Shown: positions 3,478 through 63,413, counted from the stretch's first letter. The stretch: 64,000 nucleotides of DNA from Ostreococcus lucimarinus (GCA_000092065.1 CP000601.1), one strand, 5' to 3'. A program made the numbers and translations. Notes: generated by a model not told the origin, from the sequence alone.

Positions 3478-5973
3478 TTAAAAATCCTTGAAAATCTCGT
3501 TCGCACGATTCATAGACGCATCCGTCGGTCCTCTCGCCGAATCCATTTCAGTTGCGAGCAACGATTCCCGTTCGATCTCGATAAGACGTTCGCGCTGAAT
3601 TTCTAAAAACTGCCGCGAAAGCGTCAGCGGCTTGGGCGTGTACTCGCCACTCTCTAGCAGCGCCCAGTCAAACTTGGCGAACCAAGGGTGTCTCTTAATC
3701 TGACTGACCCCGCCTTGCATGTTTCCGAGCCTTTTCGCCGAGTTTCGCTGCAAGAGCTGAGAAATAAAATTGCACGCCTCGTCGGTGGCGTACGTGGGGT
3801 ATTGCACCTCGTACGACATGTCCACGATTCGCCGCATCACTTTCAATGGATCGTCTTTTTGGGACGGATCCTTTGATATCGTGAACGGCTGTTGTCCCGT
3901 TATTGTGACGTACGTCAAAACACCCAGCGCCCACCAATCGACGGCGTAGCCGTATCCCGTGGACAGCACAATTTCTGGCGCCACGTACCCAGGGGTGCCG
4001 CAAAACGTAAACGCGCGTTCGCCGACGTCAAGTTTCTTCGCGTAGCCAAAATCTCCGAGCTTACATTTGCCGTTGAGCGCAAGCAATACATTCTCTGGCT
4101 TCAAGTCGCGATAGATGATTTGGTTGCCGTGCAGATACTCGAACGCGAGAATAACCATGGCGGTGTAGTATCGCGCCGTGTCTTCGCTGATGCCAATCTG
4201 CGTGGGCACGTGGCGAATCTCACCATCGATTTGTGTCGGAATTAACTTCACTTGCACCGCGCTCGCAAGCATGTCCATCAAGTCACACCCATCCATGATG
4301 TCGAAAAGCATGTACAGATGATTCCTGTCTTGGAAACTGGCGTGCTGACACATCAACGAAAAGTGGCTGATTTCGCTCGTGACTTCCTTTTCGCAGAAAA
4401 TGTGCGACGGACTCTCCATCACGGCACGCTTACGCACGCGCTTGAGCGCGAAGGCGCGCGGTGACGACACATTCATACCTTCTTGAATAACGCGATACAC
4501 GTGCCCACCAGTGCCTCCACCGAGCATTTCCTTCTCCACTAAATCGATCGACCCCAACTCCCGATTGACGTCCGTGGCGAACGACCTCGGGTTTACTGAG
4601 CCGTACATGCTAATGTTCACCTTCTTTCCTCCCACGCGCGCGCTACCTAACAGGCGAATTCGGGCGGAGCGCCACGACTTTTCACCCTTGAGCTGCCGCA
4701 TGCGATTACGAATGACTTCTCGAGACTTTTCTCGAAGTAAATCTTCGCGCACGGATGACAGCTTCTCGAGGAACACGTCTCGATTGACGACGTAACACAC
4801 CAGAGGAGTTTCCACGCATCGCACGGTGTACTCTCGCGGTTCATCACCGCGAATGATCTCGGAAGCACCAAAAAAGTCGTGTCGAAACAAGTGATTCACC
4901 GTGCGCGGTTCACCCGTGTCCGGGTCGAGCTTGGAAACTTGCGCTCGCCCCGAATTGACGAGGTAAAATTTACCGTCGCACGCTTCGCCTTCGGTAATAA
5001 CGTCCGTGTACGGGTCGAACGAGACCGTCTCCAAGGCATCCGCGAACGACTTCCGCGTGTCGATCGGTAAAGCGCTGAGCACGGGAACTTGTTCGAGGAA
5101 TAAATTCTTCGCGAGCGTCGTCGCCTCGACGCTGTGCTTGACCTCCCTCTTGAAGACTTGTTGCGTGCACACCCAAACCTGCGACCGCGTCTTCGCCCGC
5201 ACCGTCGCCGAGCGCGGCACGCTATAAAGTAAAGCTAACTCGCCGATGATATCGCCTTTCGTGCGCGTGAGGACGCTGATATCGGCGCCGAGCCGATTTT
5301 GCAGCACGTCGAATTCGCCTCCGGCGATGAGATACAACGCGTCGCCCGGTTCGTCCTCCTCCATCAAAATCGTCCCCTCCGGCACGTTGATGAAGAACAT
5401 TTCGCTCGCCACGCGTCGCCTGACGTTCGCATCGAGCTCAGAAAACGTAAACGTCTGCGACAGCGCCTCGCACAGCGGTTCCAATTCGCTCTTCGTCGCT
5501 CTCCGTCGCTTCGCCAGCATCTTCGCGTTCAGCTTCACGAAATACGTCAGCTCCGCCGATCCCGCGTCGCCGACGAACTCATCGTCTCCTCCGTTCGCGT
5601 TCGCCGTCGCCTCTTCCCCCGACGCGAGCGATCCCTGACTCGCGCGCAGCGCGTAGTCGACGCTCTGCCGCCTCGCCTTCGCCTCGCCCGCCGACGCCGA
5701 CGCCGACGTCGACGCCGACGCCGTCGACGTCGCGCGCGCGCGCGTCCCGTCCGACGTCCGACCCGCGTCGGCGTCGCTCGCGCTCGTCGACCCATCGCTC
5801 GCGTCGCGTCGCGCGTCCTCGTCGTCCGACGCCGCGTCCCGCGCGCCGAAGCAGCATCCGACGCGCGCGCGCGCGCGCGCCGTCGGTCGCGCGCGTCCGC
5901 GCGCGCGCGCGTCCGACGACGAGTCCGTCGCGCGGCGCGATCGCATGCGCGCGGTGTCGACCTCGTCCGCCAT
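3478..5973 (-). CDS. cGMP-dependent protein kinase-like protein: two cyclic-nucleotide-binding domains plus an AGC Ser/Thr kinase domain. It has a long Ala/Ser/Arg/Asp-rich N-terminal region, so the true start is uncertain.
   Basis: The cNMP-binding motifs are GDALYLIAGGEFDV and FGELALLYSVPRSATVRA, with a second domain at FGASEII. Kinase motifs are YRDLKPENVLL, GDFGYAKK and GTPGYVAPE. An AGC C-terminal tail follows (HPWFAKFDWALL). Confidence 0.75.
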   Translation of the reverse strand: MADEVDTARMRSRRATDSSSDARARGRARPTARARARVGCCFGARDAASDDEDARRDASDGSTSASDADAGRTSDGTRARATSTASASTSASASAGEAKARRQSVDYALRASQGSLASGEEATANANGGDDEFVGDAGSAELTYFVKLNAKMLAKRRRATKSELEPLCEALSQTFTFSELDANVRRRVASEMFFINVPEGTILMEEDEPGDALYLIAGGEFDVLQNRLGADISVLTRTKGDIIGELALLYSVPRSATVRAKTRSQVWVCTQQVFKREVKHSVEATTLAKNLFLEQVPVLSALPIDTRKSFADALETVSFDPYTDVITEGEACDGKFYLVNSGRAQVSKLDPDTGEPRTVNHLFRHDFFGASEIIRGDEPREYTVRCVETPLVCYVVNRDVFLEKLSSVREDLLREKSREVIRNRMRQLKGEKSWRSARIRLLGSARVGGKKVNISMYGSVNPRSFATDVNRELGSIDLVEKEMLGGGTGGHVYRVIQEGMNVSSPRAFALKRVRKRAVMESPSHIFCEKEVTSEISHFSLMCQHASFQDRNHLYMLFDIMDGCDLMDMLASAVQVKLIPTQIDGEIRHVPTQIGISEDTARYYTAMVILAFEYLHGNQIIYRDLKPENVLLALNGKCKLGDFGYAKKLDVGERAFTFCGTPGYVAPEIVLSTGYGYAVDWWALGVLTYVTITGQQPFTISKDPSQKDDPLKVMRRIVDMSYEVQYPTYATDEACNFISQLLQRNSAKRLGNMQGGVSQIKRHPWFAKFDWALLESGEYTPKPLTLSRQFLEIQRERLIEIERESLLATEMDSARGPTDASMNRANEIFKDF

Positions 5974-6180
5974 CGCGCGCGCGCCGCGGGAAGTGCCGAC
6001 GGACGCGCGGCGTCACATCGCCGCGCCGACGCGCGCCGAGTCGCGCCGCGAGCGCGCCGCGCGTCGGAGCGACGCGCGCGCGACGCGCGCGCGTCGCGCG
6101 TCGACGCGCGTCCGCCGCGAGCGTCGAGCGACGCTCGGAAGCGACGCGAATTCGGGTTGGGATTCGGCGGCGGCGGTGCG

Positions 6181-9100
6181 ATGGCGATTCGACGCGCGTG
6201 CGGCGCGCCGCCGCGCGCGACGGGCGCCGCGCGCGCGCGCGGGACGCGGACGATGGTCGCGCGACGCGCGATCGTGCCGGACAGGGACGACGGCGCGCGC
6301 GCGCGGGATGAGACGCGAGGAGAGACGCGCGCGGGACGAGGGCGCGAGCGCGGCGCGAGCGAGGGCGAACGCGAACGCGAACGCGCGCGGAGGGAATACA
6401 GGGCGTACCGCGCGCGACGGACGGACGTCGGGATGGACGCGCGCGCGGGGGAAGGGACGTCGACGTCGTACGGGACGGATGGCGCGGACGCGGACGCGGA
6501 GGCGGCGGCGAGGCGGGGACACGCGGAGGCGCTGCGCGCCGGGGACGTCGACGGTGCGGTGAAGGCGCTGGCGACGCTGGCGAGGCGGGGGGAAGGGGAC
6601 GCGCGGATGACGCGCGCGGTGGTGTCGAAAGCGATGGCGAAATCGCTCGCGAAATCGCATAAGGGGTTCATGAAGCTGTGCGTGAAGACGTACAGGATGG
6701 ACGCGGCGCTGCGGTACGCGCGTCTCTTCGACGCGCGCGATCGCGATTTCGCGCGCGGGAAGGATTTGTATTGCACGGTGATTTATCTGTGCGGTCGCGA
6801 GGAGGGGTCGAATCAGTGGAACATCGCGCGAGAGGCGTTTGAGCTTCGACGAGACGAAGCGGGGTTGGAGCCGGATCCGTACGCGTACAGCGCGCTCGTG
6901 TGCGCGGCGGGACGGTGCGGAAAGGCTAGGACGGCGCGAGAGGTGTTCGAGGAAGCGAATGCGGTCAATGCGGTGGATACGGTGGTGTACAACGCGTACA
7001 TAGACGTGTGTGCGCACGGGGGTGATTACGACGGCGCGAGGGCGACGCTCGAGCGCATGAAGACGACGCCGAATTGCGCGCCGAATATTCGTTCGTACAA
7101 CGGCGTCATATCCGCGGCGACGCGCAAAAAGCACTTCCCGGGCGCGATGTGGGCTTGGGAAGAGATCGAGACGGCGAATTTACAGCCAACCATGATCACA
7201 TACGGCGCCATGCTCGCCGCGGGCGCGGCGGCGGACGACGTCGACGTGCGTTGGTCGGAGGACTTGTTCGCTCAAGCGTTGGAATCTGGCGCGTGTGGCA
7301 ACGCAGGGAACGATCACATGGTGACTTCTATGCTCCAGACGTATGCTCGCGGCGTCGCGCTCGAGCAAATCGAGCGTGATGTCGCGATGGAACGCGGAGA
7401 GAGCGTCGTGCAAGCGCTCATAGAGGACGCGCAGTGGGACGAACGGCGCGCCGAGTCAACGCCCAACGGACGCGTCTGGTCGGCGTTGATAACGCTTTGC
7501 GCTCGATGTGGGCGCGCCGCGCGCGCGATCGAAGTGCTCAAGATTATGATTTCTACTCGCTCGCATCGTGTGGGACACGAATGGTTGCACTTGACGTACG
7601 CCTTGACGTCCGCGCTCGAAGCGTCGAAGGAGGGCATCGAGTACTTTGCCCGCGTGCAGCGCGAAATCGAACAGAGCCCGGCGATGGTTCGAGACTGCAC
7701 GGGCGTTCGCAACGGCTTAATCGCCACACATTTGCACTTTGGTGATTTCAAGAGTGCGTTTAAAGTCTACGACGACTTCAAAAACGATATTTTCAAGTAC
7801 CGCAAGGCGCACGAAGAGAATTGGAACGCGCGCGCGCGGAGAGGGTTGGAACGTCAACTTCCAGATACGATTACGTACAACTCCCTCATCTACGCGTGCG
7901 CTGATGACGACGTCAAGGCCATGGGACTGTATCACGACATGGTCTCGAACGGAATCAATCCTACAGTGCGAACGTACGTCGCGCTCATCGTCGCCTTGAG
8001 CCGATCAAAGCGTGGAAGTAAAGTCACCGAGGCGGAAAAAATATTCAAAGCCGCCATCGACGACGGCGTGACGCCGAACGAGTTTTTGTTCACCGCGCTC
8101 ATGGACGCTCAGGTCAAAGGCAACCGGCCGTTATCTGCGTTTGAAACGTACGCGCGCATGATTGAAGCTGATGTCAACTGCACGACTGTGACTTTCGGGT
8201 GCGCACTGCAAGCGTGCTGTTACGTCGAGGATGTCGAGGAGAGCGTCGAGCGCGCGTACTCGGTGCTTCGTGATATGACGGAGCGTGACGTCCAGATGAA
8301 CGACTGGTGCTCTAACACGTTCTTGCGCGTCATATCACGCGCCGGTCGCATTGAAGAAATGCTCGAAGAAGTGAAAAAGACGGTTCGTCGTAAAGGCAAG
8401 CTCGAACAAGAGACGCTTGAAGCCATCATTCGGGCCTTGTGTTCGGCGGGTTACGTCGAGCGCGCCAATCGCTTCATCTCTATGATGAACTCGCGTAACT
8501 TGGAACCGCGTGAGCAAACGTTCAAGGAGTTCATCGTCGCGAGTAGTCGCGATGGATTCGTCGATTGGGCTTGGGAGTCGTACAAACGTTTCACACGTTT
8601 AGGACACAAACTCGACGCGGGCACGCGGTCGGCGCTAGTCACCGTCTTGAGCGTCGCTTCGACGAGCCCGGACCCCGACGATGCGGAACTCTTGCTCGCT
8701 CGCGCGATCGGCGTCTTCGAAGCCGCGTTTAAACGCGCGGATGAAGACAATGGGCCACAAGTCTTGGACGTCATCGACGCCGAAGCGCGATGCGCGCTCA
8801 TAGTCGCCATGGCGCGAAGCGAAAAACTTGACCGAGCATTGGATATCTGGCGCGACTCCCCAAAGGCTCAATCATTTTCCAAGGCGCGTAAGCACACTTC
8901 GAGTGAAGGGAACGATTACATCGGCGATGTGCGCGCCATGTATGAGTGCCTCATCGAAGTGTGCTGTCACGAAGATCGCATCGACGACGCGCTGGAGGTG
9001 TTCGATCACTTGAAGGACGCCGGCGTGCGCGTCAGTACGGTGACGCTCGCGTTTTTGGAATCATCGTGCCGCCGATGTCGCGTGGAGGAATGGCGAATGT

Positions 9101-9276
9101 TTGACGTGTGCGCACAAATGCGCGCGCAAGTGGAACAAAAAAACGAAGGTCGCCTGGCGAAGCCGACGAAGATGAGCCACCACGTGCGCGACGACGGCAA
9201 CATCGCGAGCGAACTCGCCACGGATGGACTGGGGGGCGAACAAAAGACGTCGGCGTGGCGCAAAAACGTCGATTGA
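6181..9276 (+). CDS. Pentatricopeptide-repeat (PPR) protein, probably organelle-targeted. The start is uncertain; in-frame Met codons lie at 6181, 6253 and 6433.
   Basis: Tandem ~35-aa PPR units are present, e.g. YSALVCAAGRCGKARTAREVFEEA, VVYNAYIDVCAHGGDYDGARATLERM, SYNGVISAATRKKHFPGAMWAWEEI, ITYGAMLAAG and TYNSLIYACADDD. The N-terminus is Arg/Ala-rich. The region before 6181 in the long ORF (from 5299) overlaps the kinase gene antisense and is low-complexity. Confidence 0.7.
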   Translation: MAIRRACGAPPRATGAARARGTRTMVARRAIVPDRDDGARARDETRGETRAGRGRERGASEGERERERARREYRAYRARRTDVGMDARAGEGTSTSYGTDGADADAEAAARRGHAEALRAGDVDGAVKALATLARRGEGDARMTRAVVSKAMAKSLAKSHKGFMKLCVKTYRMDAALRYARLFDARDRDFARGKDLYCTVIYLCGREEGSNQWNIAREAFELRRDEAGLEPDPYAYSALVCAAGRCGKARTAREVFEEANAVNAVDTVVYNAYIDVCAHGGDYDGARATLERMKTTPNCAPNIRSYNGVISAATRKKHFPGAMWAWEEIETANLQPTMITYGAMLAAGAAADDVDVRWSEDLFAQALESGACGNAGNDHMVTSMLQTYARGVALEQIERDVAMERGESVVQALIEDAQWDERRAESTPNGRVWSALITLCARCGRAARAIEVLKIMISTRSHRVGHEWLHLTYALTSALEASKEGIEYFARVQREIEQSPAMVRDCTGVRNGLIATHLHFGDFKSAFKVYDDFKNDIFKYRKAHEENWNARARRGLERQLPDTITYNSLIYACADDDVKAMGLYHDMVSNGINPTVRTYVALIVALSRSKRGSKVTEAEKIFKAAIDDGVTPNEFLFTALMDAQVKGNRPLSAFETYARMIEADVNCTTVTFGCALQACCYVEDVEESVERAYSVLRDMTERDVQMNDWCSNTFLRVISRAGRIEEMLEEVKKTVRRKGKLEQETLEAIIRALCSAGYVERANRFISMMNSRNLEPREQTFKEFIVASSRDGFVDWAWESYKRFTRLGHKLDAGTRSALVTVLSVASTSPDPDDAELLLARAIGVFEAAFKRADEDNGPQVLDVIDAEARCALIVAMARSEKLDRALDIWRDSPKAQSFSKARKHTSSEGNDYIGDVRAMYECLIEVCCHEDRIDDALEVFDHLKDAGVRVSTVTLAFLESSCRRCRVEEWRMFDVCAQMRAQVEQKNEGRLAKPTKMSHHVRDDGNIASELATDGLGGEQKTSAWRKNVD

Positions 9277-10283: not shown

Positions 10284-10339
10284 GAAGTGTCGTCACGTCG
10301 CGCGTCGCGTCGCCGCACACGCGCGCGCGGTCGCGGTCG

Positions 10340-12130: not shown

Positions 12131-12790
12131 TTAGTCGGCGCGCGGTCGCGGTCGCCAGCACTCGAGCAGCTCGAATTCCTCGTTCGACGCCGGATAATCG
12201 GGATGCGCCTCGGACGCCGGCACGCGCGTGACCTCGAAACCGTTCGCCTCGATGATCGACGCGAACAACTCGACGCTCTCCGGTCGATGCTCTTTACACG
12301 CCGCGAACACCGCCGCGCGACCCGGCCCCACCAACGCCATCGTCGTCGCCGCCAGCGCGCGAATCACGCCTTCGTCCGAGGTATACATCAAATCCGCTCC
12401 CAGCACCACGTCCGGCCGCCGAATCGCCTCCGGCAACCGCTCCACGTCCTCCGCGCGTCCCCACCGCAGCGTCGTCGTCGCCATCGCCACGCTCGCCGGT
12501 ATCCGCCCTCCGCTTTCCGCCTTATTCGCCCGCGCGTTCATCCGCGTCAGCGGCACGACCCGCTTTAAATCCGTCATCGCGCACACCATCCCCGCCTCTC
12601 CCTCCGCGCTTCCCCGCGCCGCCGCGACGAGCAGCGTCGCCAGTCCCGTGCCCGCGCCCAGCTCGAGCGTCGTCGGCCCGCGCGCGTCCTCGCGCGCCTT
12701 CTTCGTCAACCGCCGCCACGTCCTCTCCCGTCCGACGTACTTTCCCAGCAGCACGCTCGCGTCCCACACCGTGAATCCCGTCGCCGGCAC

Positions 12791-12825
<35 letters not shown>

Positions 12826-12976
12826 GCGTCGTCGTCCCGGTCGTCCCGGTCGTCCCGGTCGCCTTGACGAACGCCTCGCTCGACGCGTACTGCCGCACGA
12901 CGACGCCGTCGACGTCGCACGCGTCGACGAATTTCTCGCGAAAGCTCAGGCGGTTCCGGCGCCACGTCGACGCCAT
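12131..12976 (-). CDS. Class I SAM-dependent protein-lysine N-methyltransferase (METTL21/Methyltransf_16-like)
   Basis: TVWDASVLLGKYV and LELGAGTGLATLLVAAA are present. It carries an internal low-complexity insertion, GTTGTTGTT plus D10. Confidence 0.7.
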
Positions 12977-13072
12977 CGCGCGGCGCGGTGCGCGGCGCGG
13001 TGCGTCCGCGCCGTCGCGCGTCCGACCGACCGACCGTTCGTCGGTAGTTAGACTGTATGCACATACGAGACA

Positions 13073-13080
13073 TATATAAT
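13073..13080. promoter_or_regulatory. TATA-like element (TATATAAT) in an AT-rich island between divergent genes
   Basis: catatataatcacg sits in the only AT-rich stretch between the methyltransferase ATG (12976, minus) and the large-ORF ATG (13198, plus). Confidence 0.3.
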
Positions 13081-13197
13081 CACGTAAAGCCCTATATGTA
13101 CGAACCGACGGCGCGGCGACGCCGCCGACGGCGCGCGAGACCGCGTCGCGCGTCGCCGCGCGCCCGCGCGCGCGCGAGACGCCGCGCGCGCGTCGGC

Positions 13198-16100
13198 ATG
13201 TCGCGCGCGACGCGCCTGCGCGCGACGCTGTTCGCCGACGGCGCGAGCGACGCCGAACGACTCGCCGCGGCGCGCGCCGCGCTCGACGACGACGACGACG
13301 ACGACGCGCGCGCGGTCGTCCTCGCGTGGACGCGCGCGCGACTGCGACGCGCGGGACGACGCGACGACGCGTCGACGACGCGCGAGCGCCGAGGCGACGA
13401 CGCGACGCGGGACGGGACGCGGGACGAGGAGACGCTGTGGCGGTGCTTCGCGGACGCGAGCGAAAGGGCGACGCGATCGGGACGCGCGATGACGACGGAC
13501 GCGAGCGCGGGGCGAAGGGAGGTGATGCGCGCGCTGCGACGGGCGGCGGCGTCGAGGGCGCGAGCGGTCGATGGGGAGACGCTGCGACGGGCGTTCGACG
13601 CGTTGACGCGCGACGACGGCGAGCGACGCGGCGCGAGGGCGTCGTGCGAAGAGTGCGTCGAGGTGGCGAAGAGCGCGATGTGGGACGAGGGGAATGCGGC
13701 GCTGATGAGCGCGGCGCTCGCGGCGGCGGCGGCGGCGGCGAACGCGCAGCCGAATAAGCCCGCGCCGGCGTGCGTGGATTTTGAGTTTTTGTGGAGCGTC
13801 GTCGAGACGTGGTCGCGAGCGGGCGAGGGGGACGCGCGGAGAGGTGCGAAGGAGGCGTGCGACGCGACGATGCGGGCGTTCGTGTTGCACCCGATGTACG
13901 CTCGCGCGATTCCGAATTTAGTCGCCGACGCGGCGAGCGCGAAGAAGCAGAAAACGATAGCCTCGACGGACGACGCTCGCGGCGCCGGCGGCGCGCGTTC
14001 GTCCGCGCCCGGGTTCATTTGCGACACCATCGCACGCGTCGCGCGAGCGGCGGAAAGCATGGACGTGGACGCGTTGCGCTTGGCGCCTTGGGTCTTGCGA
14101 GCGACGTGCGAGCAAGACGCAAACGAGCGTAAACCCACGGCGAGCAGTTCGGCGAACAAGTCGAGTGAATCGGTGTCAAAAGACGCGCGCGCGCTCTTCG
14201 TCGAGCTCTTTGAACCGATCGCCGCCGCTTTCGTTGCGGTACCGACGGGCGGGAAGGGTGAGCGACGCGTCGACGAAGACGCCGCCTCCGCGCTCGTCGA
14301 TGCGCTCGTCGGATTACTCGACATTGCCGTCGATTTCACGATTTACTCGCCTCTGGAAGACGAAGGTCGCGTCGAAAGCGCGCTGCAGGCGTTCGTGACC
14401 AGCATCGCAACGGTCGTAAAGACGAATGAGGTGCGCGATCGAGGTTGGTCCAGAGTCATCGGCGCGTTGTCAACGTTGGATTTGCGATTAGTCGAGCCGC
14501 ACGTCAAGGTGATGTTGACGCTCTTACTCGTGAAATCGCGCGACGCCCGTGAAGAGTGCGTCGCGGTGACGCAAACGATGATAAAAGCGTTCGCCGAGAT
14601 GCGTCAGCTACCAGAGTTCATGGAATCTGTAGGTGAAGTCGTCATAGAGGCGATGGCAAACGGCGAAAAAGTCAACGACGCGCTGGCTTCGGAAGAAGTC
14701 CTCGTCGCGTTTCAAGACGCCGCCAAGACCGTCCCGCTCAGGCAAACGCCTGATCTCATGGTGATATGTCGCAAGGCATTCATCACCGCCTACGACGGCG
14801 ACGAGAAGCCCAGCGGTGCGCGAGCGCCGTACGATTCTTTGGACAAGCTCGCGCGAGTGCTGCAAAGCGCGCTCGGGACGTGTCCGATTGACGCGGGCGA
14901 ACCACTGCTGCCAGAAGCGCAAGCGTGCCTCGAAGGGTTTTCGGAAGATATCGCGCAGCGTTTGCACTCCCACGTCGAGAGCTCACCTGCCCGCACAGGT
15001 GCCTTACTCCGAGCGTACGTGCCCGTAGCATCACTCCGCCAAGGCTTGAGCGAGGTCGCGGATGCGACGGCGCGAGATTCTTATTTTCGTTCCGAGAGCG
15101 TCGACTTGTCCGCCATCGTACGACATCTCGTTCGTGATAGTCCACGTGCGAACCAAGAGCACGAAAACGCCGAGTCGGCGGCGATTGGATGCGCCATACA
15201 GCGAGTGAATAATTTGTCGCGGCTGCGGTATCCGCGCGAAGACGTGAGTCCAGAGGAATCCGCTAAGGCTGGGTCGGAGATCAAATCTCTGTTATCTGCG
15301 TGCTTAAAGCTGGTTCCGGATACTTTGACGACTTCATACGATGCGCCCGACTCCAAAACGGAAGCGTGGAAGGTGTTGACTTCCACGATCGACCTCTGGT
15401 ACGAACAAGCGACGGATGCTAGAATCTTAGACTATTATCGATGCCGCCTCGAGACGGACATCGAAGGCGAAGGCGCGCTTTCGACAGAAGAGGAAGATAA
15501 GTTTAGCGAACTCGTGGCGACGTTTAAACCATGGGTCAGGGCGATTGCGAGCGTTATCACGCGTGGTGCGGTAGATTTAACGCGGGAGTTGAAGGAGTCG
15601 CTGAGCAGAGATGACGATTCCAGCGCGGCGGGAAGATGCGACGTTTTAGAAGACATCATCGCAGATTGCGTGGAGAATAAACGGCAAGGCGAGGCGGCAT
15701 GCGATAAAATAAAAGACTTTTGGATCGGACCGGCGAGCACGCCCATCACCGATGGATTTGGAAAGAACTGCACGAGAGAAGATTCGGCGGCGCTGAAGCG
15801 AATGCGAAGAGCCGTGGATGCGGCTGAGCGCTTGCACTACCGTGCGGTATCGGAAACCGACGTCCACGAACTATCTATCGCGTTACAAATAGGCGATTGC
15901 GCGATGTTCAACGCCGCATCGCTCGGCATGTCATCCGCCATGGATTTGTGCACTCGCGTGCGCTCGCGCTCGGCGTTTTTAGCCACGCACGACGAAGATT
16001 CGGCGATGATTGTATCTGGGTTGATCACACGAGGAGGGCATTACTTGAACGTCACCAACCTGGCGCTTCGCAACATGCTCGACGTAGAACTCGCGTCAAG

Positions 16101-24122: not shown

Positions 24123-24345
24123 GGCGGCGCGCGCGGCCGATGCGTCGGCGAGTGACGATTGCGTCGCGTCATTCCGCCGGCATTCGCGCGCGCGCGCACG
24201 AATCGCGCGCGAATCGCGCGTCGACGCGCGTCGACGCGTCGGTGCGCGTCGCGCGGACGCGCCGACGTCGCGCGGCGCGCGGCGCGTCGCGCGCGGTCGG
24301 CGATTGTGAATCTCGATTGACACAGTTTGGTAAACTCGCGAACGA

Positions 24346-33927: not shown

Positions 33928-34147
33928 CTTCTTCAACGTTTCGCGCCTCGCGCGCGCGATCGGCGCTCGCGCGCGCGACTCGGACGCCATCAGACGCGCA
34001 CAAAGATACGTGTGCGCGTTCGCATCGCGCGTTCGAGCGCGCGCGAGGGCGCGCGCGTCGCGGAGTCGCGAATTTGTGACGAATTTCCGTTGACTCATCG
34101 GGACGATCTGCACTCGACGACGCGACGCGACGCGCGCGCGCGGCGAC

Positions 34148-38337: not shown

Positions 38338-38436
38338 CGCGCGCGTCGCGCACTGTCGCGAACCGTCGCCGTCGGGACGAGACGAGCGGGACGACGACGA
38401 CGACACTTTACGACGACGCGCGCGGCGCGACGCGCC

Positions 38437-45187: not shown

Positions 45188-45391
45188 TTTTGCGAACGAT
45201 TGGTGTTGCGCGCGCGAGTGACGCGACGAACGCGACTCGGCGACGCGCGACTTCGCGACGGCCGCGACGCGACGCGCGAGGACGCGACGGCGACGGACGG
45301 GACGCGCGCGGGACGCGCGCGGCGCGAGCGGGCGCGCGCGAGGGCTCGATCGGGCGAATCGACGAGGGCGCAACACCCTCGGGGACGCGCG

Positions 45392-47322: not shown

Positions 47323-48771
47323 TCAGTCGGCGACGACGCCCTCGAGAGCGCGCGGGATCGATTGATTCGACGCGCGTAAGACGTGCGCGAGCTCTCGCGC
47401 GTGCTTGCCGTCGCGCAAGATAGAGAAGAACGTGTGCGATTTGCCTTTGCGTCCGGCGCGACCGGTGCGACCGATTCTGTGGACGTATTCCTCGACGCTC
47501 TTCGGAAAGTCGTGGTTGACGACGAGCTTCACGCCGACGACGTCCAAGCCGCGACTGGCAACGTCGGTGCTGATCATGATCGGCGATCGCGCGGCGCGAA
47601 ATTCTTCGAGGACCCAGTCGCGCTCTTTCTGTTCTTTGTCGCCGTGCAAGCCGAGCGCGGGCCAACCCTCCGAACGGAGTCGACGCGTCAGCTGGTCCAC
47701 GAGCGCCTTGGTCTCGACGAAGACCAAGATCGAGCTCCCGTCCATCTCTTCTTCTAAAATATCCATGAGTTTAGCGTACTTTGCCTCCGCGTCTTCGACT
47801 ATGTGCACGATTTGTTCGACGTTTTTCGATGCGAGCAAACCGTCGCCCGCGCCGCCGACGCGCATCTCCACCGGGTCGTTGCGAATAAACTCTCTCGCCA
47901 CTTCTCGCACCTCCACCGGCCACGTCGCGGTGAACAGGAGCGTTTGGCGATCGCAGCGCGTTTGAGCGATGATTCGACGAATCTGCGGCTCGAAACCCAT
48001 GTCGAGCATTCGATCTGCCTCGTCTAGGACGACGAACGACGTTCGTCGCAAATTCGTCTGCCCGCCGTCCAAAAAATCAATCAGGCGGCCCGGCGTCGCG
48101 ACGCAAATCTCGCTCCCTCCTGATTTCAACGCTTTTATTTGCGGACCTTTTGGGACGCCACCGGTAACGCACGCGTGCTTGATCTCGCTCGACGCCGCGA
48201 ATTTGGCGACCTCGAGTTCGATTTGACTCGCCAACTCTCGAGTCGGCGCGAGCACCAACGCGATCGGCCCCTCCCCCTTCTCCAGCACCGGCTGCGCGTT
48301 CACGTGCACGATCGCGGGTAACACGTACGCCAACGTCTTTCCAGACCCCGTCTCCGCGACCGCGATCAAGTCTCGTCCGCTCAGCGCGATCGGCCACGCC
48401 TGGCACTGACACGGCGTCGGCGTCGCCAAACCGCGCTCCTTCAAATCGTCCATCACGTACGCCGGGAACGACGCCTCCTCGAACGTCGTCACGATTTTGG
48501 GCACATCTGCCCCTCGCACCACGCGCACGCCGCGCGCTCGCATCGCGTCTTCCGTCGCTCTCGCGCTTCGCGCCGTCGTCGACGGGTGCTCAAAGTACAA
48601 ATTCTTCGAAAACACCTCCCCATCCCTCACCGTCGCGCTCGTTGACGCGTCTGCGTCGCCCGCGCGGCGCACGGCATCCATGGCGATCTCCGTTCGCGCG
48701 TCTTCGCGCGCGCGCTTGGCGCTTTCGTACGTTTCTCGAGTCGTCCCCGTCGCGGACGAGTTTTCCACCAT
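47323..48771 (-). CDS. ATP-dependent DEAD-box RNA helicase, DDX5/DDX17/Dbp2 class
   Basis: Q-motif region YVMDDLKERGLATPTPCQCQAWPIALSGRDLIAVAETGSGKT, DEAD box VLDEADRMLDMGFEPQIRRII, FTATWP and HRIGRTGRAGRKG. Confidence 0.9.
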   Translation of the reverse strand: MVENSSATGTTRETYESAKRAREDARTEIAMDAVRRAGDADASTSATVRDGEVFSKNLYFEHPSTTARSARATEDAMRARGVRVVRGADVPKIVTTFEEASFPAYVMDDLKERGLATPTPCQCQAWPIALSGRDLIAVAETGSGKTLAYVLPAIVHVNAQPVLEKGEGPIALVLAPTRELASQIELEVAKFAASSEIKHACVTGGVPKGPQIKALKSGGSEICVATPGRLIDFLDGGQTNLRRTSFVVLDEADRMLDMGFEPQIRRIIAQTRCDRQTLLFTATWPVEVREVAREFIRNDPVEMRVGGAGDGLLASKNVEQIVHIVEDAEAKYAKLMDILEEEMDGSSILVFVETKALVDQLTRRLRSEGWPALGLHGDKEQKERDWVLEEFRAARSPIMISTDVASRGLDVVGVKLVVNHDFPKSVEEYVHRIGRTGRAGRKGKSHTFFSILRDGKHARELAHVLRASNQSIPRALEGVVAD

Positions 48772-48836
48772 CGACGTTTCGCCGTCTTTCGCGCGCGTCG
48801 CGCGGCGATTCCGCGCGCCGACGCCGCGCGCGCCCG

Positions 48837-48844
48837 TTATAAAG
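48837..48844. promoter_or_regulatory. TATA-like element (TTATAAAG) in the divergent spacer between the helicase and aminopeptidase genes
   Basis: cccgTTATAAAGcc lies about 70 bp upstream of the minus-strand helicase ATG and about 200 bp upstream of the plus-strand aminopeptidase ATG. Confidence 0.3.
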
Positions 48845-49044
48845 CCTTCGCGACGCGCGCGCGCGCCGCGGTCGCGCTCGACGCGACGCGCGCCGCGTCG
48901 CCGCGTTTTGAAGCGCTGGAAAGTGTGCTTTTCGCTCGCAGTCGCGCTCGGCGCCGCACAGCGCGACGACGACGCGCGCCCGGACGCTCGCGCGCGCCGC
49001 GACGAATCCCCGAGACGACGCCCGAGCGAGCGTCGGCGCCGACG

Positions 49045-56450: not shown

Positions 56451-57988
56451 TTAATACGCCTGCGCCTGGGTGTTGGCCAACACGGCTTGCGTGAGGGCGG
56501 TGGTCTTGGACAGCAAGGCTTTGGTCTTTTCGATGATTTGCTCGTTGACGGATTTCTTCTCGACGTGCACGTGCACGAAGCCGGCTTCGGAATCGATTCG
56601 CGCGTTGAGCTTACTGCCGCGGATGAGAGTCGCGATGGTGGCCTCGACGTCGGCGGCGGGCATACCGAGCATTTGCGCCAAGTTGGCGATGTCGATGCGC
56701 TTGTTCACCTTGCAGTAGTTTTCGATGACGTACTGTCGAGCGTTTTCGTCAAACGCGTCCTTGCAGCCGATTAAAAAGAAATCCTTTTCAATCATCGCGT
56801 CGCACTTCTTCAGCATCTCTTGCGTCTTGGAGAAGTCGTAGTCGACGAAGGCCGCGACGACGAAGTCGAGCGCGGGATCGTCGTACACGTCGCTCTGGAT
56901 AATCTTCACTAAGTCTTTGAGCATGTTGCGGCGCTTCTTGTTGGCGACGATGGCGACGGCGAGGTAACGCAACAAATGCGGCGCCTCTTGTTGCACCGCT
57001 TGCATGTATCGCTCCTGGAACAACACGTCGATGATCAAGTTGCGACCGTTCGGGTGGTTGAAGAAGACGAACAGGGCGTAATGCAACAACCACGCGCGCT
57101 GCTTCATCTTGACGAGGTTGCTCGTGCTCGCGTTGCTCTCCAACGCGTCTCGCAACCTATTCATGTCGTCCAGAGCCCCGCCCCAGTTCCGCAACAAAAT
57201 GTCCGCCGCGAACTTCCCCCACAGCGCGCTCTCGCACCGCTCGTTGTCCGCGCTCAACAACTGCACCGCGCCCAAGTGCTCCGAGGCGTTTTCGTAATCG
57301 CCGCACTCGTACTCAAACTTGGCAAACTTGTACAGCGCGTCCACGTCCGCGCTCGTCACCCCGTGATTATCCTCCGCGAACTTCGCGTTCGCCGCCTTAT
57401 CCCGTCGCAAGTTCTTGATCAGCGCCCCATCGCTCGCGAACTTCACCGCCCGCGCCGCCGCCTTCCCCAGCGCCGCGTGCGCCTCCACCGTCGCGTCCCG
57501 CCTCGCCTTCGCCTCCGCCGCCGATCCCGACCCGCTCGCCTCCGCGCGCGCCTCCTCCGCCCAATCGCACATCTTCGTCTTCACCAGCGTCGCCAGCTTC
57601 GCCTCTCGCAGCGACTTCGCATCGTGCGTGCCCTCCGCGAGCGCGAACTCCAGCAGCGGCAGCGTCAGGTGCGCGTCCAGCCGCGCCGCGATCTGCGTCG
57701 TCGTCCCGCGCTCCGTCAGTCCTCGCGCTCGACCGCGGCGCGTCGGCCCTTCGCGTCCGCGACGCGTTCGCGATGCGTTACTCTTCGCCCGCGTCCTCGC
57801 GCGTCCGCCGCCGTCGCGCGCGCCGCGTCGCCGTCGCGATCGCGCAAACCCTGCCGCCGCCGCGTCGCCGCGTTCGCGTTCGCCGTCCGCTCGTCGCGTC
57901 GCCGCCCGTCGTCTCCCGTCGTCTCCCGTCGCGCGTCGCGTCGCGCTCGCGTCGCGTCGCGTCGCACCGTCGACGTCAGGTCGCGCAT
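56451..57988 (-). CDS. EIF3E: Eukaryotic translation initiation factor 3 subunit E (eIF3e/Int6). Predicted 2 exons, 57968..57988 and 56451..57692.
   Basis: The spliced N-terminus MRDLTST|IAARLDAHLTLPLLEFALAEG matches human [26 protein letters not shown]. The PCI domain and conserved core follow (YKFAKFEYECGDYENASEHL...WGKFAADILLRNW...WLLHYALFVFFNHPNGRNLIIDVLF). Exon 1 is the ORF-track ORF 57716..57988, which begins MRDLTST. Confidence 0.9.
57693..57967 (-). other. Predicted intron (275 nt, phase 0)
   Basis: Donor is ACG|GTGCGACGCGACG, branch is GCGAGGACTGACGGAGCG and acceptor is GACGACGCAG|ATC. Confidence 0.7.
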
Positions 57989-58231
57989 CGCGCGTCGCCG
58001 TGTCGCGCGCGCGCCGTCGATCGCGCGATCCGTCGGCGCTAATTAAATCACACCGCCCGTATTGAAGCACCGCGCAAACAGCGCGCTGACTGCGCCTCCA
58101 TACGTCGTATTCGAGAACGAATTCGTTCGAGACGTCGACGCGCGGGCGTCGAAAATGTCGTCTGTACTGTTTACGCACATACGGTCGGTCGCCCCGCCGC
58201 CACGCGCCGCCGCGTCCCGGTAACGCGTCAC

Positions 58232-59623
58232 ATGGCGCTCGCGCCCGGCGCGTACCGCGCGCGCGAGCGCGCGCCCGCGCGCGATGGCCACGACGCGGCG
58301 CGCGCGACGGTCGCGTTCGATCCGGCGCGTCGCGCGGCGACGCCCGCGATCGACGCAAACGCGCCGACAGCGACCGACGCGAAAGCGGATAACGCGCGCG
58401 CGGGACGCGCGGCGACGGCGTGGCGACCGCGCGCGAAGCCGCCGCGCGCGCGACCGCTGAGGTTCGAGATGGACGCGACGCGACGGGAGGTGGCGAGCGA
58501 ACGGGCGTATGCGCTCAGCGCGCGGTTCGCGGCGCGCGTGGCGTGGTGCTGCCAGGAGGGATGTTATCCGCACAAGGATCATCACGTGAATCAGGACGCG
58601 TGCGCGACGTGGGAGGGAAGGGAGATGGCGCACGAGGAGGCGGTGATCGATGGGGAGGGAAACGATGCGGTGGCGCGGCGAGAGACGGGACGGGTGCTGG
58701 TGGGGGTGTTCGATGGGCACGGGAAGCACGGGGAGGAGTGCGCGCAAATCGCGCGGGCGACGTTCGCGGAGACGCTGGCGAGGGAGACGCGGGGAGGCGC
58801 GGCGCTGAGGGATGGGTACGCGCGGACGTTCGAGGCGGTGAACGCGGTGGTGTGCAAAGAGATGGGGGAGAACGCGTCGTTTTCGGGGTCGACGGCGATC
58901 ACGGCGCTGTTTGATGACGAAGGCGTGGTGCGCGTGGGAAACGTCGGGGATTCGCGATGCGTCGTCGGCGTCGAGCGCGCGGCGGGCGTCGCGGTCGGGA
59001 ATCGACACACGAGGCGATGGGAGGTGAGAGATTTGACGCATGATCAGACGTGCTTTCGCGCGGACGAGCGCGCGCGGATGAAAGCGGAGGCGACGTCGCC
59101 GATGACGTTCGCCACCATCGGCATGGTTTTGGGCGAAACCGAGGCGCACGAGGACTTTGGCGACGGCGAACCGGGTTCGGACGAGGAATATTGCGACGAC
59201 CCGCCGCGCGTTTTCATGGCTGGTTATCGTTTTCCCGGATGCGCGTTCACTCGCTCGATCGGTGACACCGTGGGGAAGTCGCTCGGCGTGAGCGCGACGC
59301 CCGAGATGAGCGAGTTTGACTTGAACGCCGAGCCGTCGACGCGGTGCGTCGTCGTCGCCTCCGACGGCGTGTTCGAGTTCATGTCCAGCGCGGAAACGAT
59401 GGCGATCGCGGAGAAATTTTACGAGGAGAACATGCCCGGTGCCGCCGAACGCGCCGCGCACGCCATCGTGCGCGCCGCGTTCTCGCGTTGGCAAGAGCAC
59501 GACGAGCGAGCCGACGACATCACCGCCGTGGTGACGTTTATTTATCCGCTCGACTCCGACACGTCCACGGCGACGGTGGTGGTGAACGACATGGACGATG
59601 CGCTTAATAAACTCTTGTTGTAG
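58232..59623 (+). CDS. PP2C-family Ser/Thr protein phosphatase
   Basis: VGVFDGHGKHGEECAQ, ALFDDEGVVRVGNVGDSRCVVG, TRSIGDTVGK, VVASDGVFEFMS and DDITAVVTFI are present. The ATG lies 244 bp from the eIF3e ATG on the opposite strand. Confidence 0.8.
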   Translation: MALAPGAYRARERAPARDGHDAARATVAFDPARRAATPAIDANAPTATDAKADNARAGRAATAWRPRAKPPRARPLRFEMDATRREVASERAYALSARFAARVAWCCQEGCYPHKDHHVNQDACATWEGREMAHEEAVIDGEGNDAVARRETGRVLVGVFDGHGKHGEECAQIARATFAETLARETRGGAALRDGYARTFEAVNAVVCKEMGENASFSGSTAITALFDDEGVVRVGNVGDSRCVVGVERAAGVAVGNRHTRRWEVRDLTHDQTCFRADERARMKAEATSPMTFATIGMVLGETEAHEDFGDGEPGSDEEYCDDPPRVFMAGYRFPGCAFTRSIGDTVGKSLGVSATPEMSEFDLNAEPSTRCVVVASDGVFEFMSSAETMAIAEKFYEENMPGAAERAAHAIVRAAFSRWQEHDERADDITAVVTFIYPLDSDTSTATVVVNDMDDALNKLLL

Positions 59624-61800: not shown

Positions 61801-62183
61801 CGTCGCCACCGCGGCGTCCGTCGGCGCTCGCGCGCGGTCGAGCGCGGTCGAGTCGACGCTCGAGTCGCGCGCGCGCGGTCGAGCGCGCGCCGGCGCGTCG
61901 CGCGGTCGCGTCGCGTCGCGGTGTGGCGCGTGGCGCCGTCGTGGATAGCGTTTCGAGAAAATATACGTGATGGGGTAAATATGAATCACAATACTGGTCG
62001 TACGTATTCGGACATACGGGTGTGTGTATTTAGTGTACGTGATAGTTTAGTGTAAGCATCGTCGCGCGCTCGATCGCGCGCGCGCCGTCGAATCGCGCGA
62101 GACGTCGGCGCGGCGCGGCGCCGACGCGACGACGCGACGCGCGCTCGAACGTCGGCGTTCGAACGCGCCGGCGCGGCGCGCGA

Positions 62184-63413
62184 ATGCGCGCGGCGTTCGG
62201 CGACGGCGCGCCGGGATTCAAATTCCAATTCCACGCGCGCGGAAAGCGACGCGAGACGACGACGCGCGCGACGCGCGCGCTCGCCGCGGCGACGCTCGCG
62301 GCGACGGTGACGACGGCGACGATGTCGCGCGCGAGCGCGCGCGGCGCGGAGGCGTCGACGTCGGCGAAACGACGCGAAGGGACGCGAGAGGAGGCGCGCG
62401 CGCGAGCCGCGAGCGGGACGACGGCGACGACGACGCGAGACGCGACGAGAGGGAGGACGCGAATCGCGAGGGACGCGAGCGAGGACGCGCGAACGACGGC
62501 GGTGTGGGTGACGACGACGGCGGGCGCGCTGGCGGGCGCGACGGCGCGCGTGTGCGTGGCGCCGTTGGACGTGATTAAGATTCGGTTGCAGGTGCAAGTC
62601 GAGCGAGGCGCGAGCGGGAAGTATCGAGGGCTGGCGGACGCGACGCGGACGATACTGCGCGAGGAGGGGGGGCGCGCGATGTGGGCGGGGACGGTGCCGG
62701 CGCTGCTGCTGTGGGTGCCGTACACGGCGATACAGTTCACGGTGTTGAATAAGTTTAAGGAGGCGGCGAGGGAGCGGGAGCGCGCGAAACCGGGATCGAC
62801 GGCGGGACTGCCGGTGAGTTTCATCGGTGGCGCCGCCGCGGGATCGGTGGCGACGGTGGCGACGTACCCGTTCGATGTCATTCGAACGTTACTGGCGAGT
62901 CAGGGTCACCCGAAGGTGTATAATAACGTGTTCGACGCCGCGCTCGGCGTCGTTCGCGAACGCGGCGTCGCCAAAGGTTTGTACGCGGGCGTCTCCGTGA
63001 CGCTCGCCGAGATCGTTCCCGCGAGCGCGGTGCAGTTCGGCTCGTACGCTGCGTTGAAATCAAACCTCCCCGAAGTGTTCGGGGAGAACGATTTCGCGTG
63101 CGGGTTCGCCGCGGGCACCATCGCGCGGCTCGTCATTCACCCGCTCGACGTCGTCAAGAAACGATTCCAAGTCGCCGGATTCTCTCGAAGTTTAGCCTAC
63201 GGCCAACGCGTCGACGCGGGCGCGTACAAAAGTTTCTTCGCCGCCGTGCGAACGATCGCGCGCAGCGAGGGCGTGGGTGGGTTTTACAAGGGCTTGATGC
63301 CGAGTCTGATCAAGTCCGCCCCCGCGAGCGCGATTACTTTTAGCGTCTTCGAAGCCGCGCGACGGTTGTTAGAGCGCGCCGCGGACGACGACGACGAGGC
63401 GCCGCGACGATAG
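62184..63413 (+). CDS. Mitochondrial carrier family protein, thiamine-pyrophosphate carrier (Tpc1/SLC25A19)-like
   Basis: PLDVIKIRLQVQ, YPFDVIRTLLASQ and HPLDVVKKRFQV are three carrier signatures. It has a long Arg/Thr-rich N-terminal extension. An alternative start lies at 62319. Confidence 0.7.
   Translation: MRAAFGDGAPGFKFQFHARGKRRETTTRATRALAAATLAATVTTATMSRASARGAEASTSAKRREGTREEARARAASGTTATTTRDATRGRTRIARDASEDARTTAVWVTTTAGALAGATARVCVAPLDVIKIRLQVQVERGASGKYRGLADATRTILREEGGRAMWAGTVPALLLWVPYTAIQFTVLNKFKEAARERERAKPGSTAGLPVSFIGGAAAGSVATVATYPFDVIRTLLASQGHPKVYNNVFDAALGVVRERGVAKGLYAGVSVTLAEIVPASAVQFGSYAALKSNLPEVFGENDFACGFAAGTIARLVIHPLDVVKKRFQVAGFSRSLAYGQRVDAGAYKSFFAAVRTIARSEGVGGFYKGLMPSLIKSAPASAITFSVFEAARRLLERAADDDDEAPRR

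What the first reader, a model, noticed from the sequence alone, without database searches (positions are those of the whole stretch)
5973..62184. Eight head-to-head gene pairs with start-to-start spacers of ~100-390 bp (five between 208 and 244 bp)
ATG-to-ATG spacers are kinase/PPR 5973/6181, methyltransferase/large ORF 12976/13198, TAF2/HECT 24122/24346, IPT/AP-2 alpha 33927/34148, Derlin/KLHDC4 38337/38437, DDX5/PepN 48771/49045, eIF3e/PP2C 57988/58232 and CYP97/TPC 61800/62184. Five of the eight spacers fall within 208-244 bp and the full range is 99-383 bp. The spacers are the only AT-enriched sequence nearby and twice contain TATA-like elements. This suggests compact bidirectional promoters spanning roughly one nucleosome-free region.
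Basis: seen in the sequence. Interest (0 to 1): 0.5.

Follow-up and report, generated by a model that had tools for sequence, protein, structure and literature searches.

The report
Short divergent promoters in Ostreococcus
The window is nuclear DNA of the tiny marine green alga Ostreococcus lucimarinus, and the short gaps between its back-to-back genes are the ordinary, already described consequence of its extremely compact genome rather than a special promoter unit.

Summary
All 16 start codons exist, the gene names are confirmed, and 13 of the 16 starts are supported by conservation in other Ostreococcus lineages or by clean intron models.

Three points do not hold.
- The list is incomplete. 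The window has at least ten head-to-head pairs. The omitted ones are 56 bp (2OG oxygenase/apyrase), 204 bp (FKBP/unknown) and possibly about 65 bp (Era GTPase/unknown).
- The spacers are not AT-enriched. They are the most GC-rich and CpG-rich DNA in the window (72% GC against 62% overall). The AT-rich spacers are the tail-to-tail ones (46%).
- The 208-244 bp cluster is marginal (corrected P 0.02-0.07). It does not recur in 26 spacers from other lineages, which range from 43 to 832 bp. The eIF3e/PP2C spacer, for example, measures 243, 485 and 666 bp in three lineages.

Spacer size follows the number of 5' ends it holds: median 220 bp for divergent, 112 for tandem and 86 for convergent. No motif and no TATA element is conserved between lineages, and several pairs have been broken by insertions or an inversion.

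Compact intergenic DNA (<200 bp) and about 2,300 bidirectional pairs are already published for Ostreococcus. Verdict: real, ordinary, already known.

The parts
5974..6180 (.). Divergent spacer between the cNMP-binding protein kinase (3478-5973, -) and the PPR protein (6181-9276, +). It is 207 bp and 81% GC, with no AT core.
   Evidence: The starts are only weakly constrained (kinase 5973 or 5946; PPR 6181 or 6253). Length is 170-208 bp in environmental variants and 355-379 bp in lineage L019.
10284..10339 (.). It is 56 bp and 77% GC.
   Evidence: Both starts are conserved (MRRATSRADVMRK in four lineages). The orthologous spacers measure 60 bp (L019) and 43 bp (L018).
12977..13197 (.). Divergent spacer between the Methyltransf_16 protein (12131-12976, -) and Urb2 (13198-17796, +). 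It is 221 bp and 73% GC, with an AT core at 13045-13100 that contains TATATAA at 13073.
   Evidence: The orthologous spacers are 182 and 241 bp and lack a TATA element. In L020 the pair is split by an inserted gene.
24123..24345 (.). Divergent spacer between TAF2 (20329-24122, -, three exons) and a HECT E3 ligase (24346-27444, +). It is 223 bp and 73% GC.
   Evidence: The two-intron TAF2 model starting at ATG 24122 gives 1173 aa, colinear with human TAF2. The spacer is identical in three environmental contigs. No other-lineage copy was obtained.
33928..34147 (.). Divergent spacer between the IPT/TIG protein (31360-33927, -) and AP-2 alpha adaptin (34148-37383, +, with a 24-aa first exon). It is 220 bp and 69% GC.
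   Evidence: Exon 1 (MAPFLGGMRGLTVFVQDVRNCSNK) is 96-100% identical in three other lineages. The orthologous spacers are 192, 216 and 433 bp.
38338..38436 (.). Divergent spacer between Derlin (37470-38337, -, two exons) and a Kelch/IQ protein (38437-40047, +). It is 99 bp and 75% GC.
   Evidence: MGGGRDKRKK is conserved in four lineages. The orthologous spacers are 129, 88 and 65 bp. Length is 95-97 bp in environmental variants.
45188..45391 (.). It is 204 bp and 76% GC.
   Evidence: It is masked by a spurious 746-aa antisense ORF. The orthologous spacers are 238-310 bp, measured from gene-caller starts.
48772..49044 (.). Divergent spacer between DDX5-like DEAD-box helicase (47323-48771, -) and aminopeptidase N (49045-51807, +). 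It is 273 bp and 76% GC, with TTATAAA at 48837.
   Evidence: The orthologous spacers are 262, 172 and 241 bp and lack a TATA element.
57989..58231 (.). Divergent spacer between eIF3e (56451-57988, -, with a 7-aa first exon) and PP2C (58232-59623, +). It is 243 bp and 65% GC, with AT-richer patches at 58037-58170.
   Evidence: The PP2C N-terminus MALAPGAY is conserved in O. tauri and L022. The orthologous spacers are 666 bp (O. tauri) and 485 bp (L022).
61801..62183 (.). Divergent spacer between CYP97-type P450 (59788-61800, -) and a mitochondrial carrier (62184-63413, +). It is 383 bp and 69% GC, with a 100-bp AT core at 61950-62050.
   Evidence: The carrier start is uncertain (62184 or 62322). 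The spacer is 832 bp in L022. In O. tauri a Tectonin gene lies between the two genes.

Best explanation
The window is nuclear DNA of Ostreococcus lucimarinus or a near-identical environmental strain. This picoalga has about one gene per 2 kb and almost no intergenic DNA.

Each head-to-head spacer is simply the place where the two short 5' flanks of neighbouring genes meet. Each flank holds a core promoter plus a 5' UTR and contributes very roughly 100 bp. Deletion-biased genome compaction has trimmed the spacers close to what the two genes tolerate, so many of them sit near 200-250 bp.

The spacers are GC- and CpG-rich and mostly lack TATA elements. In composition they resemble CpG-island-type promoters, sometimes with a short AT-richer core.

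Shown here: gene identities and starts, spacer sizes by orientation class, composition, lack of conservation, and variability between lineages. Inferred: that transcription of both genes starts inside the spacer, and that the two promoters act largely independently.
For: - Organism. The methyltransferase is identical to O. lucimarinus XP_001421004.1.
- Density. About 30 genes lie in 64 kb.
- Size follows the number of 5' ends in a spacer. Divergent spacers have a median of 220 bp (n=10), tandem 112 (n=9) and convergent 86 (n=9). Kruskal-Wallis P=0.008; divergent exceeds convergent at P=0.002. The additive expectation 2T-C is 138 bp from medians and 250 bp from means, which brackets the observed values.
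- Composition. GC peaks at 74% from -100 to +100 around the ATGs. Pooled divergent GC is 72.4%, and CGCGCG occurs at 53 per kb against 10 per kb for the window.
- No shared element. Orthologous spacers share no motif beyond CG-rich k-mers, and the TATA-like elements are not conserved.
- Variable length. Between lineages the ranges are 243/485/666, 383/832, 220/192/216/433 and 207/355-379. Within the species, small indels change lengths, for example 170-208 bp for kinase/PPR.
- Pairs are not locked together. They are broken by gene insertions (MT/Urb2 in L020; CYP97/carrier in O. tauri), by gene replacement (2OG in L020) and by a 12.6-kb inversion.
- Literature. Ostreococcus intergenic regions are below 200 bp (PMC2850359). 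O. tauri has 2,288 bidirectional pairs (PMC4035068). Micromonas intergenic distances average 167-211 nt (PMC4815162).
Against: - Six of the ten spacers lie within 204-243 bp, tighter than a smooth lognormal predicts (corrected P 0.02-0.07). Some lower size bound or preferred unit is therefore not excluded.
- Three spacers of 56-99 bp cannot hold two ordinary 100-bp flanks. In those cases at least one promoter or UTR must overlap the neighbouring gene.
- The difference between divergent and tandem spacers is not significant in this small sample (P=0.14).
- No transcription start sites were available, so where transcripts actually begin is inferred.
Confidence: 0.8

Rival explanations
1. These are true bidirectional promoters. 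One shared regulatory unit, about the size of a single nucleosome-free region (around 220 bp ATG to ATG), drives both genes.
For: - The spacers are short, and 6 of 10 fall within 204-243 bp.
- Two spacers carry a single near-palindromic TATA-like element that could serve both directions.
- Most pairs are syntenic in 3-4 lineages.
- Spacer length is moderately pair-specific across lineages (Spearman 0.63, P=0.07).
- The published nucleosome repeat length of O. lucimarinus is 183 bp, with well-positioned nucleosomes (bioRxiv 10.1101/2025.04.21.649811; PMC5728721).
Against: - No conserved motif or TATA element occurs in the orthologous spacers.
- Lengths range from 43 to 832 bp in 26 spacers of other lineages, with no cluster (P=0.37).
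- Several pairs are broken by insertions or inversion.
- The partners have unrelated functions.
- The AT-rich premise is wrong.
- Prior footprinting work is cited as finding fewer bidirectional elements than in yeast (PMC2850359).
Confidence: 0.12
2. The pattern is mostly an artefact of choosing start codons and pairs by eye. GC-rich 5' regions lack stop codons, so 'first ATG' calls run too far upstream and shorten the spacers, and the cluster is a chance effect of a small, selected sample.
For: - First-ATG calls are demonstrably too long for the neighbouring unknown gene (27505 against the conserved start 27613).
- A spurious 746-aa ORF lies antisense to FKBP.
- The interval 208-244 was chosen after seeing the data.
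- Three starts remain ambiguous.
Against: Thirteen of the 16 quoted starts are supported by conserved N-termini or clean splice models. The measured distances are therefore largely right, and the short spacers are real.
Confidence: 0.08

Closest known systems
Genome-wide compact intergenic regions and bidirectional gene pairs of Ostreococcus (O. tauri and O. lucimarinus genome papers; Piganeau et al. 2009 footprinting; the O. tauri bidirectional-pair census in PMC4035068)
   Same: Same organism group and same feature. Intergenic regions are below about 200 bp (PMC2850359), 2,288 head-to-head pairs were counted in O. tauri (PMC4035068), and intergenic properties depend on the orientation of the neighbouring genes (PMC2850359, citing Piganeau 2009). 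The window's 220 / 112 / 86 bp medians fit this picture.
   Different: Nothing essential. This window adds only local detail: start codons checked against other lineages, spacer lengths compared across lineages, and the GC-rich composition.
Mammalian CpG-island bidirectional promoters (head-to-head genes less than 1 kb apart)
   Same: Head-to-head genes separated by a short spacer that is GC- and CpG-rich and mostly lacks TATA elements. The comparison with mammals rests on general knowledge.
   Different: - The spacers here are several-fold shorter when measured ATG to ATG.
- The whole genome is CpG-rich (observed/expected 1.73), so these are peaks rather than islands.
- No shared motifs or co-regulation were shown.
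- The pairs are not preferentially conserved.
Divergent promoters of budding yeast sharing one nucleosome-depleted region
   Same: A compact genome in which divergent intergenic regions are longer than tandem ones, and tandem longer than convergent ones.
   Different: - Yeast divergent regions are AT-rich and longer (general knowledge).
[quoted passage not shown]
Overlapping transcription in extremely compacted eukaryotic genomes (microsporidia, nucleomorphs)
   Same: The 56-99 bp spacers (2OG/GDA1, Derlin/Kelch, possibly Era/unknown) leave too little room for two promoters plus UTRs. Some promoter or UTR sequence must overlap the neighbouring gene.
   Different: No transcript data were examined here. 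Most spacers in the window are long enough not to need overlap.

Membership tests
Bidirectional gene pair / bidirectional promoter (operational definition) | Two genes on opposite strands, arranged head-to-head and adjacent, with no gene between them | tested here: met
   No ORF with a family match or cross-lineage conservation lies inside any of the ten spacers.
Bidirectional gene pair / bidirectional promoter (operational definition) | Less than 1 kb between the two transcription start sites | tested here: inconclusive
   ATG-to-ATG distances are 57-384 bp. That bounds the TSS distance only if both TSSs lie between the ATGs. No TSS data were available.
Bidirectional promoter in the functional sense (shared regulatory unit) | Shared cis-elements conserved in orthologous spacers | tested here: not met
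   Only CG-rich low-complexity k-mers are shared. The TATA-like elements are absent from the orthologues.
Bidirectional promoter in the functional sense (shared regulatory unit) | Co-expression of the two partners | not testable with these tools
Bidirectional promoter in the functional sense (shared regulatory unit) | Preferential evolutionary retention of the head-to-head arrangement | tested here: not met
   Four head-to-head adjacencies are broken in at least one lineage: MT/Urb2, 2OG/GDA1, CYP97/carrier, and unknown-985/PHM7. This is comparable to what happens to tandem and convergent adjacencies.
Single nucleosome-free region of fixed size | A narrow, conserved spacer length | tested here: not met
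   The window values are 56-383 bp. Relatives range from 43 to 832 bp with no cluster (P=0.37). The window's own cluster is marginal (P 0.02-0.07).
Single nucleosome-free region of fixed size | Nucleosome depletion across the spacer | not testable with these tools
   MNase-seq for O. lucimarinus CCE9901 exists (SRR847307, cited in bioRxiv 10.1101/2025.04.21.649811) but cannot be read here. A sequence proxy, phasing of AT periodicity to the ATG, was negative.
AT-rich / TATA-type core promoter | AT enrichment relative to the surroundings, and a TATA box | tested here: not met
   The spacers are 65-81% GC against a window mean of 62%. TATA-like elements occur in 2 of 10 spacers and are not conserved.

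The most novel reading that the evidence does not exclude
Head-to-head spacers in O. lucimarinus might pile up at a real lower bound of about 205-245 bp ATG to ATG. That bound could be set by a fixed chromatin unit: two well-positioned +1 nucleosomes around one gap, in a genome with a 183-bp nucleosome repeat and linker-only methylation. A distinct minority class under 100 bp would then have promoters embedded in the neighbour's coding sequence. The marginal cluster in this window (6 of 10; corrected P 0.02-0.07) and the conserved 43-60 bp 2OG/GDA1 spacer do not exclude this.
Probability: 0.12. Interest if true: 0.45.

Novelty: already known. Interest (0 to 1): 0.15.

Why it matters
It matters little beyond this window. 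Short intergenic regions and abundant head-to-head pairs are a textbook property of Ostreococcus and other Mamiellales.

Three practical points follow.
- Promoters of this alga for transgene work can be expected within about 100-250 bp upstream of the ATG, and they are GC-rich rather than AT-rich.
- First-ATG and long-ORF rules mislead in the stop-codon-poor 5' regions.
- Existing MNase and bisulfite data could settle the nucleosome question directly.

Tried and rejected
- Motif discovery. Shared k-mers among orthologous spacers, and 6-mer enrichment against dinucleotide shuffles, returned only (CG)n and GACGCG-type low-complexity words.
- TATA conservation. The two TATA-like elements are not present in other lineages.
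- Nucleosome phasing from sequence. A weak 180-200 bp periodicity in AT/CpG content exists, but it is not phase-locked to the start codons (P=0.62). It therefore gave no estimate of gap size.
- Purine and GC-skew switch points as a proxy for the boundary between the two transcription units. The minima scatter up to 250 bp outside the spacers.
- tRNA and Rfam scans of the window found nothing.
- A tblastx comparison of the GC-rich 54-56 kb region with O. tauri was swamped by low-complexity hits. The Era/unknown pair therefore remains uncertain.
- The metagenome scan with the HECT N-terminus returned only same-species loci, so there is no cross-lineage check of TAF2/HECT.
- The kinase look-up returned only a 3.6-kb contig.
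- The genome papers (PMC1544224, PMC1863510) and Huff & Zilberman 2014 (PMC3969382) are not held in the library.
- A genome-wide histogram could not be made, because only the window, about 9 kb of extra same-genome sequence (L024) and eight loci from other lineages were reachable.
Full report
**What the window is.** The 64-kb window is 62% GC and packed with long ORFs on both strands. The 281-aa methyltransferase at 12131-12976 is identical to Ostreococcus lucimarinus CCE9901 XP_001421004.1. Its neighbours occur on 0.5-Mb contigs and in hundreds of marine metagenome assemblies. The window is therefore nuclear DNA of O. lucimarinus or a near-identical environmental strain, with about 30 genes in 64 kb.

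**Checking the observation.** Pfam confirms every gene name.

I tested the start codons against orthologous loci from at least five other Ostreococcus-like lineages:
- L015-L017 cover the centre of the window.
- L018-L020 cover the left.
- L021 (the NCBI O. tauri assembly) and L022 cover the right.

Conserved N-termini support these starts:
- Kelch protein at 38437 (MGGGRDKRKK in four lineages)
- DDX5 at 48771
- PepN at 49045
- IPT at 33927
- methyltransferase at 12976
- Urb2 at 13198
- PP2C at 58232 (MALAPGAY, against O. tauri MALDPGTF)

For PP2C, the 384-aa database model looks truncated at its N-terminus.

Four genes have short first exons followed by introns with the same GTGCG...ACTGAC...CAG signature:
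- AP-2 alpha. Its exon 1 is 96-100% identical in three lineages.
- Derlin.
- eIF3e.
- TAF2. A two-intron model from ATG 24122 gives an open 1173-aa protein that is colinear with human TAF2, with residue 173 aligned to residue 178.

The HECT start rests on resemblance to the UBE3C N-terminus, recalled from memory and not tested. Three starts remain ambiguous: the kinase, PPR and the carrier at 62184.

*The list is incomplete.*
- The 2OG oxygenase (start 10283) and the apyrase (start 10340) are head-to-head with only 56 bp between them. Both starts are conserved, and the orthologous spacers are 60 and 43 bp.
- FKBP (start 45187) and a conserved unknown gene (start 45392) are head-to-head with 204 bp between them. 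This pair is hidden under a spurious 746-aa antisense ORF.
- The Era GTPase probably faces another gene across about 65 bp, but I could not settle that pair.

*The composition claim is the reverse of the truth.*
- The spacers are 65-81% GC, and each lies at the 69th-99th percentile of all 220-bp windows.
- Pooled GC is 72.4% for divergent spacers, 67.7% for tandem and 46.0% for convergent.
- CGCGCG occurs at 53 per kb in divergent spacers against 10 per kb for the window.
- Averaged over 27 genes, GC peaks at 74% from -100 to +100 around the ATG. It falls to 57-60% beyond +600 and to 54% after the stop codon.
- Only short cores (30 bp at 30-47% GC) in six of the ten spacers are AT-richer.

**Is the size cluster more than chance?** With ten pairs the spacers are 56, 99, 204, 207, 220, 221, 223, 243, 273 and 383 bp.
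- A scan statistic for a pre-set width gives P of about 0.005-0.04.
- Allowing for the post-hoc choice of width gives P = 0.02-0.07.
- Twenty-six divergent spacers measured in the other lineages, plus one further pair in L024, range from 43 to 832 bp. They have a median of 242 bp and show no significant clustering (P=0.37).
- For single pairs the length changes a great deal between lineages. eIF3e/PP2C is 243, 485 and 666 bp. CYP97/carrier is 383 and 832 bp. IPT/AP2-alpha is 220, 192, 216 and 433 bp. Kinase/PPR is 207 against 355-379 bp.
- Other pairs stay short or medium. Derlin/Kelch is 99, 129, 88 and 65 bp. DDX5/PepN is 273, 262, 172 and 241 bp.
- The rank correlation between the window and its relatives is 0.63 (P=0.07).
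- Within the species, small indels change several spacers, for example kinase/PPR at 170-208 bp.

The length is therefore loosely pair-specific and not quantised.

**What sets the size.** In the window, divergent spacers have a median of 220 bp, tandem (stop to ATG) 112 bp and convergent (stop to stop) 86 bp.
- Kruskal-Wallis gives P=0.008. Divergent exceeds convergent at P=0.002, and tandem exceeds convergent at P=0.017. Divergent against tandem gives P=0.14.
- If each 5' end and each 3' end contributes its own piece, the divergent size should be 2T-C. That is 138 bp from medians and 250 bp from means, which brackets the observed 213-220 bp.

This is the pattern expected from two independent short 5' flanks in a genome under strong compaction. 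It matches published statements:
- Ostreococcus intergenic regions are below 200 bp, and footprint sizes depend on the orientation of the neighbouring genes.
- Bidirectional regulatory elements are less frequent there than in yeast (PMC2850359, citing Piganeau et al. 2009).
- O. tauri has 2,288 bidirectional pairs (PMC4035068).
- Micromonas intergenic distances average 167-211 nt (PMC4815162).

**Evidence on shared regulation.**
- Orthologous spacers share no k-mer other than CG-rich words such as CGCGCGTCG.
- 6-mer enrichment against dinucleotide shuffles finds only (CG)n and GACGCG.
- The TATA-like elements are not present in any orthologous spacer.
- The partner genes have unrelated functions.
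- Head-to-head adjacency is not specially protected. An extra gene separates the methyltransferase from Urb2 in L020, where an APH gene also replaces the 2OG oxygenase. A Tectonin gene sits between CYP97 and the carrier in O. tauri.
- The window's own lineage carries a 12.6-kb inversion (about 27.45-40.4 kb). That inversion destroyed a head-to-head pair, unknown-985/PHM7, that the three other lineages keep.

**Chromatin.** I could not test nucleosome occupancy.
- Published re-analysis gives a nucleosome repeat of 183 bp for O. lucimarinus, and MNase and bisulfite data exist (bioRxiv 10.1101/2025.04.21.649811). Methylation is confined to linkers (PMC5728721, citing Huff and Zilberman 2014).
- In the sequence I found a weak excess of spectral power at 180-200 bp in AT and CpG content. 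It appears in the window and in most of the seven loci from other lineages.
- That periodicity is not phase-locked to the start codons, so it says nothing about the width of any gap at the promoters.

**Verdict.** The feature is the ordinary, published compactness of Ostreococcus. The AT-rich/TATA premise is wrong, and the preferred-size idea is marginal in this window and not reproduced in relatives.

The most novel reading still open is a lower size bound near 205-245 bp, plus a class of spacers under 100 bp whose promoters overlap neighbouring genes. Public data would test it cheaply.

Noticed in passing
window ~27445-40440; compare L015, L016, L017: The block from the unknown 985-aa gene to the Kelch gene is inverted relative to three other Ostreococcus-like lineages. 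Both breakpoints lie in intergenic spacers (27444-27613 and 40047-40439). In the other lineages the unknown-985 and PHM7 genes are head-to-head (244-488 bp), and the inversion removed that pair.
   Followed up: partly
whole window; profile around 27 start codons: There is a strong 5'-to-3' GC gradient in genes. GC is 74% from -100 to +100 of the ATG, 57-60% beyond +600 and 54% just after stop codons. CpG observed/expected is 1.73 window-wide and about 2.0 at gene starts. Tail-to-tail spacers are the AT-rich DNA (46% GC). In lineage L016 the divergent spacers are instead slightly AT-richer than its average, so the GC-rich spacers are lineage-specific.
   Followed up: partly
window 10284-10339; L019 9911-9970; L018 4012-4054: The head-to-head spacer between the 2OG oxygenase and the apyrase is ultra-short (56 bp, and 60 and 43 bp in two other lineages), with both start codons conserved. 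There is too little room for two promoters and two leaders, so some promoter or UTR sequence probably lies inside the neighbouring gene.
   Followed up: partly
whole window and L015-L022: There is a weak excess of spectral power at periods of 180-200 bp in AT and CpG content (about 1.4-1.6 times the local background in the window, and up to 3.3 times in L015). This is close to the published 183-bp nucleosome repeat of O. lucimarinus. It is not phase-locked to start codons.
   Followed up: partly
window 58232-58468: The database models of this PP2C (384 aa in O. lucimarinus, 385 aa in O. tauri) start at an internal Met. The 79-aa N-terminal extension beginning MALAPGAY is conserved in O. tauri (MALDPGTF) and L022 (MAVVPGAY), so the annotated proteins look truncated.
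   Followed up: partly
window 44183-46420 (+) and 27505-27612: Stop-codon-poor GC-rich DNA produces misleading ORFs. A 746-aa ORF runs antisense across the FKBP gene. The first ATG of the unknown 985-aa gene (27505) lies 36 codons upstream of the start conserved in other lineages (27613).
   Followed up: yes
window 30518-31311 (-) and 43892-44659: Two genes are not obvious from the ORF list. One is a radical-SAM gene on the minus strand, split into two frames by a probable ~120-bp intron and homologous to genes in L015 and L016. The other is a possible small minus-strand gene in the 770-bp gap after PHM7, whose peptide ends ...KTAADGAMYAVGATDKLQGTGVWSFIKAERD.... The same gap is 560-690 bp in the three other lineages.
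   Followed up: partly
L021 (O. tauri) 14060-14076: The long O. tauri eIF3e/PP2C spacer (666 bp) contains two tandem copies of the plant telomere repeat (CCTAAACCCTAAACCCT, telo-box-like) about 140 bp upstream of the eIF3e ATG. It also contains a run of GATGAGAGAC-type repeats. Neither is present in the window's 243-bp spacer.
   Followed up: no
window 34220-34374, 38087-38237, 57693-57967, 23643-23797, 23950-24066: All five introns seen share the same strict signals: donor GTGCG, branch site (G)ACTGAC and acceptor CAG about 25-35 nt further on. All lie near the 5' end of their genes.
   Followed up: partly
L018-L022 versus window: Gene content differs between lineages.
- An extra 303-aa gene lies after PPR in L019.
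- In L020 an APH gene replaces the 2OG oxygenase, an extra 249-aa gene lies before Urb2, and the sulfotransferase-like gene is missing.
- O. tauri lacks the 313-aa mitochondrial carrier between PepN and Era.
- L022 has a ligand-gated-channel-like gene near Era.
   Followed up: no
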